From NCBI GenBank assembly GCA_024613925.1, contig GCA_024613925.1_4713.1: DNA of 64,000 bases; one strand, written 5' to 3'. The DNA comes from a phage. The notes below the pieces were generated by a model that saw only the letters and a list, made by a program, of their open reading frames with translations, had not been told where the DNA came from and made no database searches. Shown here one piece after another: positions 6,095 to 24,112 of this stretch. The position numbers and the translations under genes were made by a program. Each line of letters begins with the position of its first letter. The stretch's first letter is position 1.

Positions 6095-6601
6095 TTACTT
6101 ACTGATAACCTCAACGGAATCCGGGTCGGCGATCAGCGCACGATCGGTAGAACAATTGAAGAAGACCATACCAACACCATCACCGTTCGAGTTCAGGGTT
6201 GAACTTGCGTAAGACAGGGTTGGTTTATTCATGCGGTAGAAGCGTTCGCTGGTTGTGGTATTGAACCCCAGATCAACGTAGTCTTTCACCGTGGTGTACA
6301 ACTGTGTGGACTCGAAAACGGTTACCGGAGAGTCAACGGTAAACTGACTGCCTTCATCCACAACCAGAACTTTATCGTTCCAGATTTCAGTGGTTGAGAA
6401 CTTCGGTTTCCAATGTTCGAATTCCTGGGTTGCACCCCAGCAAGAATACACAGCGAGATTGCTGTTCTTCTCGACAGGTTTCAACCCCACCAGTTGTGTC
6501 AGGTCTTTATCCAGGTTCGGTAAACCTTCCAGCGTAGCACACCCACCCAGAGAAAGCACCATCAACATACCAAGAACGATCGTGCAAAGTTTCTTCATCA
6601 T
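6095..6601 (-). CDS. lipoprotein (signal peptide with lipobox LSLGGC)
   Basis: N-terminus MMKKLCTIVLGMLMVLSLGGCATLEG. Confidence 0.6.
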   Translation of the reverse strand: MMKKLCTIVLGMLMVLSLGGCATLEGLPNLDKDLTQLVGLKPVEKNSNLAVYSCWGATQEFEHWKPKFSTTEIWNDKVLVVDEGSQFTVDSPVTVFESTQLYTTVKDYVDLGFNTTTSERFYRMNKPTLSYASSTLNSNGDGVGMVFFNCSTDRALIADPDSVEVISK

Positions 6602-16532: not shown

Positions 16533-17363
16533 TTAATCGTAACTAAAATAAAGTTTGCTGCTGACGCCGCTATCGGAATGAGGTTTTAACACCAGAACAG
16601 AGCTTCCGAACGACGGAAGTATTGGAACATCTAAATCGTTCGCGTCAGCAACTTTTCCATTATAAACGACACTGGCTGTTGTGATGAGTTCCCAAGCTGA
16701 GGTATAACTCATTGAAATCAGCGATGAGGCTAAACGGAATGCGTTGTATCCTTCTGGACTATCTCCAACCGACATCGAACGTATCGCATCTTGCGGCGGT
16801 AAATTTAGCTTGATACCGTAAGTGCTGAATGTGTGGAAATCCCCTTGTTTACTATCTTCTGGATAGTACGAGGTTAGTGGTTCTCGCACCGTAAACAGTT
16901 CGCTAATATCGGTACTTACCGCTTTTCGTGCGAGGAATTGAAACGTACCGTACCACGATGCCGATGCATCAGAACGAACGGGAACAGATATGGTTTTCTC
17001 GCCGCTTTCAAATTTAACCTGTGATGCTAACGCTGAAGAATCAAAGATCGTTAAATCGATCTTCAACCCATACTTCTTAAACAGCTGCGTTAAGCAATCT
17101 GCTATCGTCGTCTTATCAGCAACGACAATAAAAGGTTGGTGTTTGATAAAGAGCTTATTAATGTCTCGACGTTGAAGATAAACCTGTACGGGGTCTTCGA
17201 CGTAGTAAACCGATTGTGGTGCGGGGGCTATAGAAAGGCGTAACCGACCCGATGCACCATACCAGGCTGGCGTTAACGTAATGTCTGACAGGGATAACGG
17301 ATGCTGGAGATAGGTGTTTATTTTAGATAACACTTCCTCCTGCCATGATGCTTCAGGATACAT
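16533..17363 (-). CDS. divergent adapter module protein (paralog D)
   Basis: 276 aa; weaker similarity to adapter module (RRDINKLFIKHQP, FKKYGLKIDL). Confidence 0.5.
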   Translation of the reverse strand: MYPEASWQEEVLSKINTYLQHPLSLSDITLTPAWYGASGRLRLSIAPAPQSVYYVEDPVQVYLQRRDINKLFIKHQPFIVVADKTTIADCLTQLFKKYGLKIDLTIFDSSALASQVKFESGEKTISVPVRSDASASWYGTFQFLARKAVSTDISELFTVREPLTSYYPEDSKQGDFHTFSTYGIKLNLPPQDAIRSMSVGDSPEGYNAFRLASSLISMSYTSAWELITTASVVYNGKVADANDLDVPILPSFGSSVLVLKPHSDSGVSSKLYFSYD

Positions 17364-17494: not shown

Positions 17495-18070
17495 TTAATG
17501 AGGAATCAGATCGTTAAGCTTTTCTTCTTCAATGACAAAGAAGTTGTTCTGGTCGTCTAAATCTGTTAACAGGACTTGCCCAACAGTAAAGCAAGTTCCG
17601 CCTTTCTTAGGCACCCATACAGGCTCGTTCGTTACCTTATCGGGATACCATTTGAAACGATTGGTATCTAAGAAGAACGCTGCTTTGTTCGCTTTATCGG
17701 TTGAACGATAGCTAACTAGCGCAGGCCACTCAATCCAGGTGTTTGTGCACGGCACATGTAAAGGATACCATGCGCGCCAGCGTTTGCCTGGCCTGTTAGG
17801 ATCAACCCAATACTCGGCAGTCAATACAGCATCTTTATAATGTTTCTGCATTAACATTTCGAGCACAAGCTCATTGCCTTTTGATGCGTCTAAAGTCACT
17901 TCCGTCATATAAAGAGATTTAGGTAATTCAGACTGTTTTGCGGGTGTTACAACACCGGTAACCAACGGTCTGCTCGGTTTACGTTTCTGTTCTTTCCGAC
18001 GTGTGTAAAAGAATAGTCCGATAGATACAGCAACAAGTATAATAAACAACACTACCTTAATCCAACTCAT
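17495..18070 (-). CDS. membrane-anchored protein (N-terminal TM helix)
   Basis: N-terminus MSWIKVVLFIILVAVSIGLFFY then basic stretch. Confidence 0.5.
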   Translation of the reverse strand: MSWIKVVLFIILVAVSIGLFFYTRRKEQKRKPSRPLVTGVVTPAKQSELPKSLYMTEVTLDASKGNELVLEMLMQKHYKDAVLTAEYWVDPNRPGKRWRAWYPLHVPCTNTWIEWPALVSYRSTDKANKAAFFLDTNRFKWYPDKVTNEPVWVPKKGGTCFTVGQVLLTDLDDQNNFFVIEEEKLNDLIPH

Positions 18071-18892: not shown

Positions 18893-19423
18893 TTAATGTT
18901 TGTTCTTTACGAACTCTATCGCCTCCAGAATACCAGCGTTTAATCGTTGACCGCGTTCCTCCATTGTCCCGCCATCGCGATGTTTGAAATTAACCGAGTG
19001 GATATCCCAAGCCCAGTAATGTGTCTCCGGCGTGTCGTCTTCTTTGGTGGGATCGCTCAATCTGTTAACCCCAATTCGCCAAATATAATCAGCGGGTTGT
19101 CGTCGTAAGCATTCACCTATAGCGTCTATATAAGACAACCCTTCGGTCGTCACAGCGACGACAACGTGTGGGTGTTTTTTGACTTCTTTGGTTGTTTGTT
19201 TGCCGTCCAATGTCACGCTGATCTTTTGAATTTCGTGTCCTTCGCACGACCATATCGGTGCAATACCTGGCGCATCTAACAACGCCTGGCATGCGGGTAA
19301 TATACCAGGTTCAATGACTCCTTCCTTGATAGCCATCCGTGCGCGTTCTTTGAATATCGCTAATTGTTCTTCGGTGACAACAAAAGAAAACATAATTACT
19401 CCTTTCTGGTTCTTCCCCTCCAC
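18893..19423 (-). CDS. hypothetical protein
   Basis: 176-aa ORF. Confidence 0.5.
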   Translation of the reverse strand: MEGKNQKGVIMFSFVVTEEQLAIFKERARMAIKEGVIEPGILPACQALLDAPGIAPIWSCEGHEIQKISVTLDGKQTTKEVKKHPHVVVAVTTEGLSYIDAIGECLRRQPADYIWRIGVNRLSDPTKEDDTPETHYWAWDIHSVNFKHRDGGTMEERGQRLNAGILEAIEFVKNKH

Positions 19424-19465
19424 AGCTTCAGGAAGAGAAGAACCGTTTGTTACGTTGCTAAGTAA

Positions 19466-19723
19466 TTAAAAGGCGTTGATTGGATTGTTCAATGCTTTAT
19501 CGCGGATTTGAATTGCTGCTCGCATTGCTTTCTGATACGAATCGTAAGCATCAACAGAAACCGTCATATCAACCAATTTCTCTAATACGGATTCAGCCGC
19601 TTTTACGCGGATGCGGAACTTGGTGATGGCGTTATCTTTGTTACGATAAACCGTGATATGGTGCAGCGGTTGAACGTTAGTTTTATTTGTTTTAACGGAT
19701 TTAGTTGCTTTGATCGTTTTCAT
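19466..19723 (-). CDS. hypothetical small protein
   Basis: 85-aa ORF. Confidence 0.4.
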   Translation of the reverse strand: MKTIKATKSVKTNKTNVQPLHHITVYRNKDNAITKFRIRVKAAESVLEKLVDMTVSVDAYDSYQKAMRAAIQIRDKALNNPINAF

Positions 19724-19778
19724 GATGATTTCCTTCTTTATTAGGATAATTACGTTTTAGTCAGTTTAACAGCATAAA

Positions 19779-19803
19779 CCCTTCCTGCGTAAGGCAGGAA
19801 GGG
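19779..19803 (-). terminator. GC-rich hairpin (cccttcctgc...gcaggaaggg) followed on minus strand by TTTATGCTG
   Basis: 10-bp stem read from sequence. Confidence 0.55.
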
Positions 19804-19817
19804 CATACGGATTTGTT

Positions 19818-20315
19818 TTACGTGTGTCGTCGTTTACCAAAGAAAATGTGGCTGTCTACCACGGTGATATTGGTAGCATGTTTTCTGAAATGTTTAGGGC
19901 GAAGATGTTTCGTGTTAAAGAATACGGCTCCTCGTGTTGGGTCGGCTTTATGGTAAGCCGCAATGTCAGTATAACGTAATGTTGCGACCTCTCGTGCTAT
20001 TGCTCTTGCTCGCTCAAAAGCAGCATGATCGCGTATGATAATACGCCTTTGTTTTGTCCAGGGGAATTGACCTCTTTGCAGTACGACGTCTTTGACGTTC
20101 GTAGGGAATCGGTAGTCCATAGATCGATTATGTATTAAAAACGCCACGGAGTATTGCCCTTTTACAGATTCGCCTCTGGCTTCCATATACACGGCGCATG
20201 CGACGATCTCTTTCCGGCAATCGATTCTAGGTCCTGCGTTCACTGATGCTTGACTGAACGGTGTGATAAGCAACATAACAAGCCCTAAAATCAACGTGTG
20301 TAAAATACCTTGCAT
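19818..20315 (-). CDS. SleB-like cell wall hydrolase with N-terminal signal peptide (candidate lysis enzyme)
   Basis: Motif CAVYMEARGE typical of SleB/Hydrolase_2 family; signal peptide ending SQA; SD GAGGT. Confidence 0.6.
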   Translation of the reverse strand: MQGILHTLILGLVMLLITPFSQASVNAGPRIDCRKEIVACAVYMEARGESVKGQYSVAFLIHNRSMDYRFPTNVKDVVLQRGQFPWTKQRRIIIRDHAAFERARAIAREVATLRYTDIAAYHKADPTRGAVFFNTKHLRPKHFRKHATNITVVDSHIFFGKRRHT

Positions 20316-20856
20316 CTTAATAACCTCACGATAAGGTGCTGTCCACTGGCGTCTTGATAACGCATCCCGTCATCGGGTTGTTCTATTCAGCGGGCAGCAG
20401 GTTAGCGTCAGATGTTTGCCCGACATCCACGACAGAAATAAACGGTACTGAAAATACGGTCTCCTCTGGTTTGGCAATAAACATAACGTTGGATAACAGA
20501 ACCCATTTCCCGCATCCAACGCGGTAAAGGTGTACATCGTTTGAATTCATATAGTTTCTCAAAGATGTTAACCTCTACCGTCGAGCCATAGGTTGTATTT
20601 ATCCCGAACATACGGATCGCGATAAATACGTCGATAGACTTGATGTGGTATAAACTCGCAATGTACGAGTTCGTCGCTTAATTTATGACGTCGTTCCATA
20701 ACGTTGTGAATACGACGTATCTCCCGGATATTAAAGGTTGTTTTATTCAAGAGAATAGACATAATGGCGGATCGATGATCCAGATTAAAGATCGCCATCA
20801 CGCTTCGTATCTCGCGTAAAACAACTTCCCTATCGACAAGGATGCGATTAGTTAAC

Positions 20857-21249
20857 TTAAGATTCTCCGTGATACCCATAACCTTCATCCTCGACACGTC
20901 GACACCTCGGTAAAAATAAACACCAGCTTGTTGCACTGAGGATCGCCGTTGCGATGATACTTGCGATATCACCCAGTCGAGCATCGACCTGCCACATAAC
21001 AAGCATAAAAAGCCACATAACAAGCATAAAAAGAACGTACGCGAACCCATACACGATAAACCGTTTGATGTTGCGCGTCGACCCCGTACAAATATACAAA
21101 AGGGGAAGCTGCCCTATAACACAAACGATGGTTCGGATAACGTAATAAACGCGTTCCGTCGTTGTTTCAAAATCGATATTCGTTGCAGAAATCCCGATCA
21201 TTATAAAAGTGAAAAAGAAATAGATTTTTGCGTATGTCTTTAAACTCAT
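20857..21249 (-). CDS. multi-pass membrane protein containing a 21-bp in-frame tandem duplication
   Basis: Hydrophobic segments; duplication 20991-21032 encodes repeated MLVMW. Confidence 0.45.
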   Translation of the reverse strand: MSLKTYAKIYFFFTFIMIGISATNIDFETTTERVYYVIRTIVCVIGQLPLLYICTGSTRNIKRFIVYGFAYVLFMLVMWLFMLVMWQVDARLGDIASIIATAILSATSWCLFLPRCRRVEDEGYGYHGES

Positions 21250-21265
21250 GGCTTTTCCCGATCGT

Positions 21266-21499
21266 TTATTTGTGTTTTCCTACATTCCTCAACAAGGTAA
21301 CGATAACGAATACCGCTATCATCAAGAAGACGAACCATAACCCTACGTTAATTCGAGCAGCAGGTTCATCGACCATGAAGAACATCATCCCACAAAACCC
21401 AATGACCATCCATGCTAGAACCATCCCCGTTAATCCCCGTAGTAGCATATGTCCCATCATGAACTCCTTCTTACTTTTTCTGATAAAGCGATGATTCAA
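21266..21499 (-). CDS. small two-TM membrane protein (holin-like)
   Basis: 77 aa with two hydrophobic helices and basic C-terminus. Confidence 0.4.
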   Translation of the reverse strand: MNHRFIRKSKKEFMMGHMLLRGLTGMVLAWMVIGFCGMMFFMVDEPAARINVGLWFVFLMIAVFVIVTLLRNVGKHK

Positions 21500-21633
21500 A
21501 TTTTAGAAACATCCCTAATGCGAATGCGAGTAATATCGCACGTACCCACATACCTCCTTGACAACTGTTGTACAACATAAAGACCAGAGCGATGCCGCCC
21601 ATATGCAGGCGGCACTTATCGAACAGTGTTGGT

Positions 21634-21861
21634 TTATACATAAGAGATCAATCGTTGAATGATTTTTACTTTGCCTTTACCTGGACCTTTCTTGCGGCGA
21701 TTCAACAGACGGATACTGTTTCCAGTTACGGTGTCGCCATCATAATCAGCCTGGAACTGTGATAAAAAAGCAGGCTGTATCGGATCGACACCAGGATTGC
21801 TATAGAAAGGATTGAGACTTAAAAGAGGATTAGCTGGAATCATCGTATTGTCCTTACTCAA
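21634..21861 (-). CDS. small basic protein with RRKKGPGKGK motif
   Basis: 75-aa ORF; motif shared with ORF 38457..38648. Confidence 0.35.
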   Translation of the reverse strand: MSKDNTMIPANPLLSLNPFYSNPGVDPIQPAFLSQFQADYDGDTVTGNSIRLLNRRKKGPGKGKVKIIQRLISYV

Positions 21862-22212
21862 TTATTTACCCAGATAGAGGTATTCACCACCCTGAACAAC
21901 CCCGGTTGCTGGATCAACAAGTATACGAACCCGCGCGTAGGTCTTGAAAGAGGGGTTGAAAACTTCGAAGTCTGCCACTTTCAATTTCACGCTGGGGTTG
22001 GTAGGGTTCTTAACTCCGGGAAGTTCTTTCGGGGTACCAAAATCAACACCACATTCTTCAAGGTCTGCTGGTGTCATGCTCTCCATGGCCATGTAGATTG
22101 CTTTTGCTTTATCGTAAACTTCTGGGCTATCCAGCAACCCAGCCTGTGCTGAACCGACAACACTACCGAACAGAATAGCAATAGCAACAAACAATTTAGT
22201 TAACGTTTTCAT
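21862..22212 (-). CDS. secreted protein (signal peptide)
   Basis: N-terminus MKTLTKLFVAIAILFGSVVGSAQA. Confidence 0.5.
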   Translation of the reverse strand: MKTLTKLFVAIAILFGSVVGSAQAGLLDSPEVYDKAKAIYMAMESMTPADLEECGVDFGTPKELPGVKNPTNPSVKLKVADFEVFNPSFKTYARVRILVDPATGVVQGGEYLYLGK

Positions 22213-22248
22213 GATATTTTCCTCGAAAGTAAAATGTTACAATACCTA

Positions 22249-22671
22249 TTAACGTACGGCCGCTACGCTGTTAGCGCATGCCTGAATATCATCGGTATTT
22301 ACGATGATGGTTTCGTTAAACGCACGAATACGCGCACGACGTGCTTCTTTAAGGCTGGCGATTGCGCTAGCAGCTTGATCTGTATTCGCAAGGCTAATAA
22401 CCGGGATCAAACGCATGTCAGGACTGCAGATATTCAATGCTTGGTATACACGCCCATTGATTCCTACGGTATCAGACATCGGATAGTGCGCGCTGCATTG
22501 AAATTGACCCATGACAACAAGCGAACGATCGGAGATACCAATCTGATAACGCCCGTCTTCGCTGTAGGCGTAGCAGTTATTCCCACGAGCCATCCAGTTA
22601 GCCTGTGCTTGCGTGCTAACAAAAGCCAGAGTGGTAACGATAGCGAATACGATATTTTTGAGCAGTTTCAT
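22249..22671 (-). CDS. secreted protein (signal peptide)
   Basis: Start placed at MKLLKNIVFAIVTTLAFVSTQAQA because hairpin 22706-22727 lies inside the longer ORF extension; SD GAGGA upstream. Confidence 0.5.
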   Translation of the reverse strand: MKLLKNIVFAIVTTLAFVSTQAQANWMARGNNCYAYSEDGRYQIGISDRSLVVMGQFQCSAHYPMSDTVGINGRVYQALNICSPDMRLIPVISLANTDQAASAIASLKEARRARIRAFNETIIVNTDDIQACANSVAAVR

Positions 22672-22705
22672 GATAAAGATCCTCGTTGAAATAAAATCGG
22701 TATAA

Positions 22706-22727
22706 AGGCCCCCATTTAGGGGGACCT
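22706..22727 (-). terminator. GC-rich hairpin (ccccc/ggggg core)
   Basis: aggccccc atttag gggggacct. Confidence 0.45.
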
Positions 22728-22729
22728 GA

Positions 22730-23047
22730 TTAGTTTGCACGTAAGAAATGACCCAGAACCGTTACGATTGGAAACAGTCCTGTAACAGTACCATCGCCCG
22801 AAAACATCATCATTGTTCCGTTAACGGTGATGAAACGGATGTCGGTTGCGGACCCATCGATAGCGACAAAACGCATCGAGTTCGGTGGAAGGTCCTCAAC
22901 CACTTCCACGAGATACTCGCGATTATCAAAGGCTTCTTTAACACGACGCATGAAACGAATCAATGTTCCTTCAGCGTCGGCTTCCAAATGGCCTAAGATA
23001 TCGCGATTATTACGAACAGCGAATACAGCCATTTTAAACATACACAT
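22730..23047 (-). CDS. hypothetical protein
   Basis: 105-aa ORF downstream of 24-nt conserved motif. Confidence 0.45.
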   Translation of the reverse strand: MCMFKMAVFAVRNNRDILGHLEADAEGTLIRFMRRVKEAFDNREYLVEVVEDLPPNSMRFVAIDGSATDIRFITVNGTMMMFSGDGTVTGLFPIVTVLGHFLRAN

Positions 23048-23113
23048 CTTGACATCCTTTTATATTGGATTGATTGCTAATAATTCAAGGTGAAGCTGAT
23101 TACTGCATTGCTT

Positions 23114-23137
23114 CACCTAAGTAATATAGCCGTGAAA
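23114..23137 (-). promoter_or_regulatory. conserved 24-nt intergenic motif, copy 1 (minus-strand reading TTTCACGGCTATATTACTTAGGTG), adjacent to hairpin 23088-23118
   Basis: 23/24 identical to 50604-50627; both upstream of minus-strand genes. Confidence 0.35.
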
Positions 23138-23155
23138 ATTAATGTATTAACCCAT

Positions 23156-24112
23156 TCACGCTTTTGCTAAGTAGGGTTGGATCTCATTAATCCGTTTAAC
23201 CACAACCTCAGGGAAAAGTTTGAGTATTTCATCAGGTGGTATCGCACCTTCTGTCCAACGATAGCGTTCAACCATCTCGATGCGTGGACTCCCTCCGACG
23301 TCAGCGATACGAAAGATGCAGGCGATGCCTAAATCGAAACATACGCTGTATATATCTTCCGTGCCTCCTTTATCAGCAAGTATTTTCGCAAAATGCTCGT
23401 TATCGGGAAGAATGGCTAAATTACGGATACACCAAACATTATTCCCCATTTCTTCAAGTTTTGGGTAGGTTAAAGTGTGCCCGTATTGTGTCAACCATCG
23501 ATGATTTTCGAGGTAGAAGTCCTTATCCCCTGGCCGATAACCCAGTATCACTCCCGTGTAGAAGAGATTGGGCATATCGAGCAGTTCTTGAATCGTTGGA
23601 CCCGTATGCTCCCAAAGACAGATTTGTTTACGGTCTATATCGTAATCTGTGACGTTACTCACCTCCCAACTTATCGTAAGTTCGTCGACAACGTGCCAAC
23701 CTAAAGCATGTTCGCCACCAAGCAGATTAACAATGGCTGATATTTCATACTTGTCAAATACGCCTAAATTACGCGGTGGTTGCATCGTACGTAATGGCTC
23801 CCACAGCACACTGTAATCATAGAGCAAATGGCGACATAAACTTTTTGTTAGCGGTGTCTGTTCGGTGAACAGCGGAAGAATTACCGTATCTAACAGTGGA
23901 CGTAATGGATGGTTGTCAGGTGGTAGAGGAGAAACCAGACGACCTCCTTCTTTGGGGTAATCGAGACCAAACCCGTAACGCTCCGAAATGAGCGCAATCA
24001 ACACTTTTGCTACGCGGTTACGTAGCATGCGATGGATATCATCACTGTAACTGAATTTCGGTTTATTACCGCAAACGAAGGTGAAGTATCTGGGCGTTAG
24101 CACAGCCATCAT
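23156..24112 (-). CDS. hypothetical protein
   Basis: 318-aa ORF. Confidence 0.5.
   Translation of the reverse strand: MMAVLTPRYFTFVCGNKPKFSYSDDIHRMLRNRVAKVLIALISERYGFGLDYPKEGGRLVSPLPPDNHPLRPLLDTVILPLFTEQTPLTKSLCRHLLYDYSVLWEPLRTMQPPRNLGVFDKYEISAIVNLLGGEHALGWHVVDELTISWEVSNVTDYDIDRKQICLWEHTGPTIQELLDMPNLFYTGVILGYRPGDKDFYLENHRWLTQYGHTLTYPKLEEMGNNVWCIRNLAILPDNEHFAKILADKGGTEDIYSVCFDLGIACIFRIADVGGSPRIEMVERYRWTEGAIPPDEILKLFPEVVVKRINEIQPYLAKA

What the first reader, a model, noticed from the sequence alone, without database searches (positions are those of the whole stretch)
19818..22740. Candidate lysis or envelope cluster: SleB-like hydrolase, small TM proteins and two signal-peptide proteins
A signal-peptide SleB-type cell-wall hydrolase is followed within 1.2 kb by a multi-pass membrane protein and a 77-aa two-TM protein (holin-like), then two small secreted proteins. 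No lipoprotein/TM spanin pair is obvious, so the lysis mechanism may be non-canonical.
Basis: partly seen in the sequence, partly recalled or inferred. Interest (0 to 1): 0.45.

Follow-up and report, generated by a model that had tools for sequence, protein, structure and literature searches.

The report
Phage envelope operon with secreted hydrolase

Summary
The window is 94.8% identical to Escherichia phage Goslar, and 19818-22740 corresponds to Goslar gp098-gp104, all on the minus strand.

The cluster encodes:
- a Sec-signal SleB/CwlJ-type hydrolase (Pfam Hydrolase_2, catalytic Glu kept);
- a 3-4-TM protein;
- a two-TM protein of 63-64 aa;
- two signal-peptide proteins.

Conserved GC-rich hairpins sit just upstream of gp104 and just after the hydrolase stop codon, so the cluster is one discrete unit. 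It is conserved in ten Goslar-like genomes.

Calling it "the lysis cassette" is not established:
- The endolysin conserved across this phage lineage (GH108 plus PG_binding_3, Goslar gp024) lies outside the window.
- No protein here matches a known holin family.
- There are no spanins.
- The multi-pass membrane gene varies from 0 to 2 copies.
- Secreted SleB-like hydrolases in other large phages do not sit in lysis cassettes.

Two new leads came up. The two secreted proteins occur fused in one E. coli island protein, so they probably work as a pair. A roughly 350-nt block upstream of the hydrolase gene is 96-100% conserved while flanking genes are 52-86% identical.

Interest is moderate to low. 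Best guess: an auxiliary wall-weakening or lysis-timing module.

The parts
22706..22727 (-). GC-rich hairpin (GGUCCCCC-UAAAU-GGGGGCC) followed by a U-rich tail, just after the gp105-like gene. It is the likely upstream boundary (terminator) of the unit.
   Evidence: Folds at -14.8 kcal/mol, z -2.6. The divergent L015-L018 lineage has an unrelated upstream gene, yet carries a different GC-rich hairpin at the same position. L017 shows a two-sided compensatory change there (GGCCCTC/GAGGGCC to GGTCCTC/GAGGACC).
22249..22671 (-). gp104-like protein, 140 aa. Sec signal peptide (AQA|N) and four conserved Cys. Periplasmic beta-sandwich.
21862..22212 (-). gp103-like protein, 116 aa. Sec signal peptide (AQA|G). 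Periplasmic helix plus four-strand sheet (cystatin/PepSY-like fold).
21634..21843 (-). gp102-like protein, 69 aa. No TM. Variable N-terminal half and an invariant basic C-terminus (IRLLNRRKKGPGKGKVKI...).
   Evidence: AAGGA Shine-Dalgarno. Present in all ten genomes. No family hits.
21471..21641 (-). ORF56, a 56-aa small membrane protein not annotated in Goslar. Its ATG overlaps the gp102 stop (ATGTATAA). Its 5' part contains a conserved hairpin at 21592-21615.
   Evidence: Intact in all ten genomes with conservative hydrophobic substitutions. It is called as a gene in other assemblies. One hydrophobic segment at residues 30-48. Hairpin folds at -16.5 kcal/mol, with its stem invariant across lineages.
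21266..21460 (-). gp101-like protein, 63-64 aa, two TM segments. Acidic loop (DEPAAR) and basic C-terminus (RNVGKHK). Class II holin or pinholin-like topology, but no family membership.
   Evidence: TM segments at residues 4-22 and 38-56. AAGGAG Shine-Dalgarno. Homologues occur only in Goslar-like phages, at 76-98% identity. No Pfam, PHROGs, NCBIfam or PADLOC hit.
20857..21249 (-). gp100-like protein, 130 aa, 3-4 TM segments. Dispensable and variable in copy number. In this window it carries an in-frame 21-nt tandem duplication (20991-21033) inside a TM segment.
   Evidence: TM segments. Duplication shown. The gene is absent from the UViG contig and L026. L017 has an extra 114-aa distant paralogue (E 7e-7). 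It is 46% identical between lineages.
20568..20879 (-). gp099-like protein, 103 aa, basic (19 K+R), no TM. It exists as two allelic types, about 57% identical, that have been exchanged between lineages.
   Evidence: The only family signal is a weak, sub-threshold resemblance to the winged-helix regulator CaiF (E 0.034). No PDB match by sequence.
20250..20599 (-). Ultraconserved block. It covers the last ~30 nt of gp099, the 252-nt gap (20316-20567) and the first ~65 nt of the hydrolase gene. Probably a leader for the hydrolase gene; function unknown.
   Evidence: The 252-nt gap is 99.2% identical to L015/L018, and the whole block is 94-100% identical in 50-nt bins, while flanking genes are 64-85% identical. 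The block is single copy and occurs only in Goslar-like phages. No Rfam match. No covariation is available to test a fold. The small ORFs inside it are not supported as coding.
19818..20315 (-). gp098-like protein, 165 aa. A Sec-exported SleB/CwlJ-type peptidoglycan hydrolase and the last gene of the unit.
   Evidence: Pfam Hydrolase_2 at 59.5 bits. PHROGs 'endolysin' phrog_938, E 7e-16. Aligns to the SleB catalytic domains 4f55 and 4fet with the YxE(A/S)RGE motif kept. N-terminal core plus SQA|S. It is 98% identical to Goslar gp098, which RefSeq annotates as 'endolysin'.
19778..19804 (-). Strong hairpin followed by UUUAUG, 14 nt after the hydrolase stop codon. The likely terminator that closes the unit.
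   Evidence: Folds at -24.5 kcal/mol, z -5.2, with 0 of 200 shuffles as stable. It is 100% paired in 7 distinct sequences, with one compensatory pair (U-A, U-G, C-G).

Best explanation
The region is one operon-like unit of a Goslar-type chimallivirus, and most of its products go to the cell envelope.

Shown:
- Eight tightly packed or overlapping genes lie between two conserved terminator-like hairpins.
- Three products have Sec-type signal peptides: a SleB/CwlJ-type wall hydrolase, an IalB-like beta-sandwich protein and a cystatin/PepSY-like protein.
- Three products are small inner-membrane proteins.
- Two products are small basic cytoplasmic proteins.
- The two non-enzymatic secreted proteins occur fused in one E. 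coli protein.

Inferred mechanism:
- This is an auxiliary wall-weakening or lysis-timing module. It works alongside the lineage's conserved cytoplasmic GH108 endolysin, which is encoded elsewhere.
- The hydrolase reaches the periplasm through Sec, without needing a holin.
- Its output is limited by the ultraconserved leader in front of its gene.
- Its activity is restrained by the paired periplasmic proteins, or released when the 63-aa two-TM protein depolarises the inner membrane in the manner of a pinholin.
- No spanin is involved.
For: - Identity of the locus and gene map.
- Hydrolase family, catalytic motif and signal peptide. Homologues in Arash, CR9 and KB57 all have classical signal peptides. 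The Vequintavirinae homologue CB7_83 is reported to have a signal peptide and to be toxic in E. coli (data not shown there), and CR3_087 is cited as implicated in lysis (PMC7344957).
- Unit boundaries and coupling: hairpins; Shine-Dalgarno sites and overlapping start/stop codons.
- Conservation of gp104, gp103, gp102, ORF56, gp101, gp099 and gp098 in ten genomes.
- Topology of the two-TM protein.
- Non-random clustering of envelope proteins.
- gp104 plus gp103 domain fusion in P0014.
- gp103 has an inhibitor-type fold, including a match to YpeB, the partner of SleB in Bacillus.
- A gp103 homologue lies next to genes of the peptidoglycan O-acetylesterase type.
- Goslar has no BLAST-level homologue of the phiKZ holin, regulator or spanins, and nothing membrane-bound lies beside its GH108 endolysin. 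Its lysis control genes must therefore be somewhere still unrecognised.
- The predicted leader fold pairs the hydrolase Shine-Dalgarno sequence.
Against: - No experiment of any kind bears on this cluster.
- No protein here matches a holin, antiholin or spanin family.
- The N-terminus of the two-TM protein is not conserved as a dual-start motif.
- gp100 is dispensable.
- The hydrolase is not part of the chimallivirus core. Relatives such as SPN3US carry the GH108 enzyme, and none appears among the listed best matches of the hydrolase search.
- In other phages the secreted SleB-like gene lies among early-type genes, far from the spanins, and a separate candidate wall-degrading enzyme is present (PMC7344957).
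- gp103 and gp104 relatives live in bacterial islands without lysis genes.
- The leader structure has no covariation support, and several substitutions break predicted pairs.
- The expression timing of the unit is unknown.
Confidence: 0.4

Rival explanations
1. Superinfection exclusion or envelope conditioning rather than lysis. The small membrane proteins and secreted proteins would protect the infected cell against secondary phages, as T4 Imm (a small two-TM protein) and Spackle (a secreted inhibitor of the incoming tail lysozyme) do. The secreted hydrolase would alter the wall for the same purpose.
For: - gp103 has a fold typical of extracellular or periplasmic inhibitors: cystatins, PepSY propeptides and colicin M immunity protein.
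- gp103 and gp104 relatives occur in E. coli mobile islands, one of them amid TIR and AbiGi defence-type genes.
- gp100 varies in copy number and gp099 has been swapped between lineages, which is typical of accessory conflict genes.
- Secreted SleB-like genes in other phages sit in early-type regions.
- The properties of T4 Imm and Sp are stated from my own knowledge of the T4 literature.
Against: - There is no sequence or fold similarity to Imm or Sp.
- No PADLOC hits.
- Secreting an active wall hydrolase is an odd way to exclude other phages.
- The hydrolase gene is the most conserved coding gene of the unit against Goslar (98.6% nucleotide identity).
Confidence: 0.25
2. A set of unrelated accessory genes that share a transcript in a hyperplastic region. 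Under this reading there is no joint function, and the hydrolase is a stand-alone auxiliary enzyme.
For: - The surrounding 50 kb consists of small minus-strand genes of unknown function.
- Neighbouring genes gp096, gp105 and gp108 are deleted or replaced in close relatives.
- gp099 and gp100 have been exchanged or lost.
- The 252-nt gap separates the hydrolase gene from the other genes.
Against: - Seven of the eight genes keep their order in all ten genomes, across lineages in which gp103 is 65% and gp099 about 57% identical at the protein level.
- The clustering of envelope-directed products is unlikely by chance.
- gp104 and gp103 are fused elsewhere.
- Hairpins bracket exactly this set of genes.
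Confidence: 0.2
3. Wall remodelling to accommodate the infection. A secreted lytic transglycosylase-type enzyme would loosen the sacculus so that the cell can swell around the large phage nucleus and the virion bouquets. Lysis itself would be carried out by the GH108 endolysin.
For: - The hydrolase is exported by Sec and so could act throughout infection.
- A separate, conserved endolysin exists.
- Swelling of Goslar-infected cells is something I recall from the Goslar cytology literature. I did not verify it here. The only bulging I read about concerns the unrelated jumbo phage Sharanji (PMC11895373).
Against: - Other nucleus-forming phages lack this enzyme.
- The same enzyme family is common in 140-kb phages that do not form a nucleus.
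- There is no direct evidence.
Confidence: 0.12

Closest known systems
Secreted SleB-like cell-wall hydrolases of large virulent enterobacterial phages (Vequintavirinae CB7_83, CR3_087, CR9 gp095; Salmonella phage Arash gp62c)
   Same: Same Pfam domain (Hydrolase_2) and a similar size (149-176 aa). All have a classical N-terminal Sec signal peptide. None is encoded in a holin-endolysin-spanin cassette, and a second wall-degrading enzyme is encoded elsewhere in the genome (PMC7344957).
   Different: Only 29-45% identical. Here the gene closes an operon of envelope proteins and is preceded by an ultraconserved 250-nt leader. In the other phages its neighbours are phosphatases, an RNA ligase, a helicase and small hypothetical genes.
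Pinholin plus SAR endolysin systems (phage 21 S21-68/R21; P1 Lyz)
   Same: The endolysin is exported by Sec independently of the holin. A small two-TM, N-in/C-in membrane protein with a basic C-terminus is encoded nearby. The logic is that membrane depolarisation, rather than a large hole, unleashes the enzyme.
   Different: The hydrolase N-terminus is not SAR-like. Only 18% of its core is Gly/Ala/Ser/Thr, and a cleavage motif follows. The roughly 60% figure for the P1 and R21 SAR domains is my own recollection. There is no sequence relation to S21 or to any holin family. There are no spanins. The genes are 1 kb apart, with two other genes between them.
Signal-peptide endolysins of Gram-positive phages (Oenococcus fOg44 Lys44)
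   Same: A cleavable Sec signal peptide on a phage muralytic enzyme, with activity thought to be held in check until the membrane is de-energised (my own knowledge of the literature).
   Different: Different catalytic domain, Gram-negative host, and no demonstrated holin partner.
phiKZ lysis cassette (i-spanin gp141, o-spanin gp141.1, class IIIb holin gp142, regulator gp143, endolysin gp144; PMC12894885)
   Same: Same virus family. Both loci lie beside tail genes of the DUF7941 type. In the window, a single-TM protein (17495-18070) directly precedes a DUF7941 protein (16533-17363), just as phiKZ gp142 precedes gp143.
   Different: No BLAST-level homologue of gp141-144 exists in Goslar or the window. 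The enzyme here is a secreted SleB-type hydrolase, not a soluble SLT-type transglycosylase. There are no spanins.
Bacillus SleB-YpeB pair
   Same: A SleB-type catalytic domain together with a small extracytoplasmic protein of PepSY/cystatin-like fold encoded nearby.

Membership tests
SleB/CwlJ cell-wall hydrolase family (Pfam PF07486 Hydrolase_2) | Match to the family profile above the curated threshold | tested here: met
   59.5 bits against a cut-off of 27, covering profile positions 1-100 of 100. NCBIfam spore_SleB scores only 41 bits against 236, so the protein is not the spore enzyme itself.
SleB/CwlJ cell-wall hydrolase family (Pfam PF07486 Hydrolase_2) | Catalytic glutamate in the YGE(S)RGE motif | tested here: met
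   gp098 'avYMEaRGE' aligns with 'avYGEsRGE' of 4f55 and 4fet. That this Glu is the catalytic residue is from my own knowledge of the SleB structure papers.
Canonical multigene lysis cassette (holin, endolysin, i-spanin, o-spanin) | Holin: a membrane protein belonging to a known holin family or shown to trigger lethally | tested here: not met
   gp101, gp100 and ORF56 match no holin family in Pfam, PHROGs or NCBIfam. Only the topology of gp101 resembles class II holins. Triggering cannot be tested here.
Canonical multigene lysis cassette (holin, endolysin, i-spanin, o-spanin) | Spanins: an N-terminal-TM periplasmic coiled-coil protein with an adjacent or embedded lipoprotein gene | tested here: not met
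   The cluster contains no lipobox. The only convincing lipoprotein in the whole Goslar genome is gp088, whose homologue in the window is at 6095-6601.
Canonical multigene lysis cassette (holin, endolysin, i-spanin, o-spanin) | The muralytic enzyme is the phage's endolysin (required for lysis) | not testable with these tools
   RefSeq calls both gp098 and gp024 'endolysin'. gp024 (GH108) is the one conserved in related chimalliviruses.
SAR endolysin / pinholin system | N-terminal signal-arrest-release domain: weakly hydrophobic, Gly/Ala/Ser/Thr-rich, uncleaved | tested here: not met
   The core ILHTLILGLVMLLITPF is 18% G/A/S/T. It has a Kyte-Doolittle mean of 2.5 over 15 residues and is followed by P-F-S-Q-A|S. 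It looks like a cleavable signal peptide. SignalP was not available.
phiKZ-type lysis cassette | Homologues of gp141, gp141.1, gp142 and gp143 | tested here: not met
   tblastn of the PA7 orthologues against Goslar and the window gives no hit better than E 0.78. Profile-level or fold-level comparison was not done.
SleB-YpeB type hydrolase/partner pair | A PepSY-domain partner protein that binds or stabilises the hydrolase | tested here: inconclusive
IalB (invasion-associated locus B) family | Sequence match to the family; periplasmic beta-sandwich | tested here: inconclusive

The most novel reading that the evidence does not exclude
The operon is a self-contained, holin-independent lysis-timing device. 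A Sec-secreted SleB-type hydrolase is held inactive in the periplasm by a dedicated two-protein partner (gp104 plus gp103, an IalB-like domain and a PepSY/cystatin-like domain that are fused in E. coli island proteins). Its synthesis is gated by an ultraconserved RNA leader of about 250 nt that sequesters its ribosome-binding site. This would be a phage counterpart of the Bacillus SleB-YpeB pair and the missing lysis control of Goslar-type nucleus-forming phages, with no spanins.
Probability: 0.1. Interest if true: 0.65.

Novelty: new variant of a known kind. Interest (0 to 1): 0.35.

Why it matters
The lysis genes of nucleus-forming jumbo phages were defined only recently, for phiKZ (PMC12894885). 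Goslar, the E. coli model for this family, has no BLAST-level homologue of that cassette. I found no paper that assigns Goslar a holin or spanins.

This operon gives concrete candidates that can be tested directly with existing Goslar knock-down tools:
- a secreted hydrolase;
- a protein with pinholin-like topology;
- a pair of periplasmic proteins.

If the operon has nothing to do with lysis, it still raises the question of why more than a thousand large enterobacterial phage records encode Sec-exported SleB-like hydrolases outside their lysis genes.

The ultraconserved leader and the gp104/gp103 fusion are new observations, modest in scale.

Tried and rejected
1. The 160-aa ORF 20568-21050 is interrupted in Goslar, so the real gene is the 103-aa 20568-20879.

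2. Coding potential of the 252-nt gap.
- ORF55 (20370-20537) loses its stop and frame in L016 and L017.
- ORF67 (20408-20611) looked promising with five genomes, with 3 synonymous and 2 conservative changes. With ten genomes it shows 3 synonymous against 6 non-synonymous events, and it has no start codon in L027.
- Both were rejected.

3. A known RNA family in the gap. Rfam in E-value mode finds nothing there, and there are no tRNAs.

4. A conserved RNA fold for the gap. RNAalifold gives a fold with no compensatory pairs, and some substitutions break pairs. This is unresolved rather than supported.

5. A repeated or mobile element. The block is single copy and found only in Goslar-like phages.

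6. A SAR endolysin reading was rejected on composition and the cleavage motif.

7. Homology to the phiKZ lysis cassette: none found.

8. Defence or anti-defence families: no PADLOC hit.

9. gp099 as a winged-helix regulator: only sub-threshold hints.

10. gp102 as a cationic 'disruptin'-like peptide. This rests only on its basic C-terminus and was not pursued.

11. A Foldseek search against afdb50 was not available.

12. The sigma-70 promoter scan found no more sites than shuffled sequence gives. These phages use their own RNA polymerases, so that scan is uninformative.

Full report
**What the window is.** Region 19000-23500 is 94.8% identical over its whole length to Escherichia phage vB_EcoM_Goslar, a 237-kb nucleus-forming chimallivirus. 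The window corresponds to Goslar 91.8-156.2 kb. All genes in the finding are on the minus strand and correspond to Goslar gp098-gp104.

**Check of the observation.**
- The 165-aa product of 19818-20315 matches Pfam Hydrolase_2 (SleB/CwlJ catalytic domain) at 59.5 bits against a cut-off of 27. It also matches the PHROGs 'endolysin' family phrog_938.
- It aligns with the solved SleB catalytic domains 4f55 and 4fet with the YxE(A/S)RGE motif intact.
- Its N-terminus has a strongly hydrophobic core followed by P-F-S-Q-A|S, which looks like a cleavable Sec signal peptide.
- 20857-21249 has 3-4 hydrophobic segments, and 21266-21460 has two.
- The products of 21862-22212 and 22249-22671 have classical signal peptides ending in AQA.

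Some corrections are needed.
- The two-TM protein is 63-64 aa, starting at an ATG behind AAGGAG, not 77 aa.
- The second secreted protein is 140 aa, starting at ATG 22671 behind GAGGA, not 163 aa.
- The 160-aa ORF is an artefact, because it is interrupted in Goslar. The real gene there is a 103-aa basic soluble protein at 20568-20879.
- Two further genes belong to the cluster: a 69-aa basic protein (21634-21843) and a 56-aa membrane ORF (21471-21641). Goslar does not annotate the latter, but it is intact in every relative and is called as a gene in other assemblies.

No spanin pair exists. The only convincing lipoprotein in the whole Goslar genome is gp088. Its homologue in the window is at 6095-6601, next to the tail-fibre assembly gene. 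Such a dense run of envelope-directed products is unlikely by chance, with P about 0.001-0.01 in a shuffle of gene labels.

**A discrete unit.** I found nine further Goslar-like genomes or contigs:
- Goslar itself;
- an IMG/VR contig of 237.5 kb;
- four contigs of a more divergent lineage from E. coli assemblies and metagenomes (L015-L018);
- three more contigs (L026-L028), one of them from a Salmonella assembly.

In all ten genomes the order is gp104, gp103, gp102, ORF56, gp101, then gp100 in variable copy number, then gp099, a gap and gp098.

Gene spacing is tight. ORF56 overlaps the gp102 stop (ATGTATAA), and gp099 overlaps the end of gp100.

A GC-rich hairpin with a U-rich tail lies just upstream of gp104, at 22706-22727. 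The divergent lineage has an unrelated upstream gene and a different hairpin sequence at the same place, and L017 carries a compensatory double change in it.

A strong hairpin at 19778-19804 follows the hydrolase stop codon. It folds at -24.5 kcal/mol with z -5.2. It is fully paired in seven distinct sequences and has one compensatory pair. The finding's coordinates therefore coincide almost exactly with one hairpin-bounded unit.

**The parts.**

*Hydrolase.* More than 1000 phage records encode relatives. The best outside Goslar is Salmonella phage Arash at 45% identity, followed by many Vequintavirinae. The homologues in Arash, CR9 and KB57 all begin with classical signal peptides. They sit among small early-type genes such as phosphatases, an RNA ligase and a helicase, not in lysis cassettes. 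The CB7 paper reports that the Vequintavirinae homologue has a signal peptide and is toxic when expressed in E. coli (data not shown there). That phage has a further candidate wall-degrading enzyme and spanins elsewhere, and no classic lysis cassette (PMC7344957). So gp098 is a new member of a known but functionally unresolved family of secreted phage hydrolases.

*gp101.* It has the size, N-in/C-in two-TM topology and basic C-terminus of class II holins or pinholins. It has no relatives outside Goslar-like phages and no family match. Its N-terminus is not conserved as a dual-start motif.

*gp100.* It is absent from two relatives, and L017 has an additional distant paralogue. It cannot be essential.

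*The gp104-gp103 fusion.* An exhaustive profile search with gp103 found a few small secreted relatives and a 336-aa E. coli protein, P0014. The N-terminal domain of P0014 is gp104-like (BLASTP 1e-8, conserved Cys residues aligned). Its C-terminal domain is gp103-like (1e-14). This domain fusion argues that gp104 and gp103 act together. P0014 lies in a CP4-57-like island between a WYL regulator gene and a DUF932 gene, and it is present in 9 of 5426 complete E. coli genomes. Another gp103 homologue follows DUF459 and Ape1-type (peptidoglycan O-acetylesterase-like) genes in a different island. That fits a wall-related role, but it is a single case.

**Is it the lysis cassette?** Goslar encodes two other muralytic candidates. 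The first is gp024, a soluble GH108 plus PG_binding_3 protein. The second is a lysozyme domain in the giant tail protein gp204. gp024 is 43-53% identical to proteins of SPN3US, phiEaH2, Stratton, PaBG and other chimalliviruses. It is therefore the conserved endolysin of the lineage. It lies outside this window and has no membrane protein next to it.

The phiKZ cassette (spanins gp141 and gp141.1, holin gp142, regulator gp143, endolysin gp144; PMC12894885) has no BLAST-level homologue in Goslar. Goslar's holin and its means of disrupting the outer membrane are thus unidentified, and this operon is the densest group of membrane proteins in the genome. That makes a role in lysis plausible, but nothing more.

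I put 0.4 on an auxiliary wall-weakening or lysis-timing role. The rest is divided among superinfection exclusion or envelope conditioning, co-transcribed but unrelated accessory genes, and wall remodelling for cell swelling.

**The ultraconserved leader.** The 252 nt between gp099 and gp098 differ from Goslar at one position. They differ from the divergent L015/L018 lineage at two positions, which is 99.2% identity. In the same comparison gp099 is 65%, gp103 69% and gp098 85% identical at the nucleotide level.

- The conserved block runs from 20599 to about 20250. It has a sharp edge on the gp099 side and decays slowly into the hydrolase gene.
- It is single copy, confined to Goslar-like phages, and matches no Rfam family.
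- The small ORFs inside it are not supported as coding.
- RNAalifold predicts a long helix whose apical part is replaced in L016/L017 and whose base pairs with the hydrolase Shine-Dalgarno sequence. There is no covariation to test this, and some substitutions break predicted pairs.
- Recent recombination at the edge of the swapped gp099/gp100 module is an alternative explanation for the conservation.

I leave this unexplained. A translational leader for the hydrolase is the working idea.

**Verdict.** The 'envelope cluster' reading is supported, and the 'non-canonical lysis cassette' reading is possible but unproven. The hydrolase family and the genes themselves are already in public records: Goslar gp098 is annotated 'endolysin' and the other genes 'hypothetical'. 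What is new is the operon delimitation, the unannotated ORF56, the gp104/gp103 pairing and the conserved leader.

Noticed in passing
window 20250-20599 (minus strand): A block of about 350 nt, consisting of the end of gp099, the 252-nt gap and the start of the hydrolase gene, is 94-100% identical in 50-nt bins to a lineage whose flanking genes are only 52-86% identical. It is single copy, has no Rfam match, and the ORFs inside it are not supported as coding. It could be an RNA leader or a recombination boundary.
   Followed up: partly
window 21471-21641 (minus strand): A 56-aa membrane ORF that Goslar does not annotate is intact in all ten genomes and translationally coupled to gp102. Its 5' part holds a GC-rich hairpin (21592-21615) whose stem never varies, even where synonymous changes were possible.
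   Followed up: partly
window 20991-21033: A perfect 21-nt tandem duplication, absent from Goslar, adds seven residues (FMLVMWL) inside a TM segment of the gp100-like protein.
   Followed up: yes
window 20568-21249; L009, L017, L026: The gp099/gp100 module is mosaic. There are two gp099 alleles, about 57% identical, and one has been moved into an otherwise Goslar-type backbone. gp100 is present in 0, 1 or 2 copies. The neighbours gp096, gp105 and gp108 are deleted or replaced in close relatives.
   Followed up: partly
L020:8001-9011 (E. coli chromosome); L019:2780-3142: An E. coli island protein (336 aa, in 9 of 5426 complete genomes) fuses a gp104-like domain to a gp103-like domain. It lies between WYL and DUF932 genes of a CP4-57-like element. 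A separate gp103 homologue follows DUF459 and Ape1-type (peptidoglycan O-acetylesterase-like) genes.
   Followed up: partly
window 6095-6601 (minus strand): This is the homologue of the only clear lipoprotein of the Goslar genome (lipobox LGGC, 168 aa here). It lies next to the tail-fibre assembly and tail-fibre genes. That position recalls the receptor-blocking lipoproteins of T5-like phages rather than an o-spanin.
   Followed up: no
window 17495-18070 and 16533-17363 (minus strand): A 191-aa protein with one N-terminal TM segment followed by a very basic stretch directly precedes a DUF7941 protein. In phiKZ the single-TM holin gp142 directly precedes the lysis regulator gp143, which gives a weak DUF7941 hit (18.7 bits, below the cut-off). 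This may be an alternative holin candidate 1.7 kb downstream of the hydrolase gene.
   Followed up: partly
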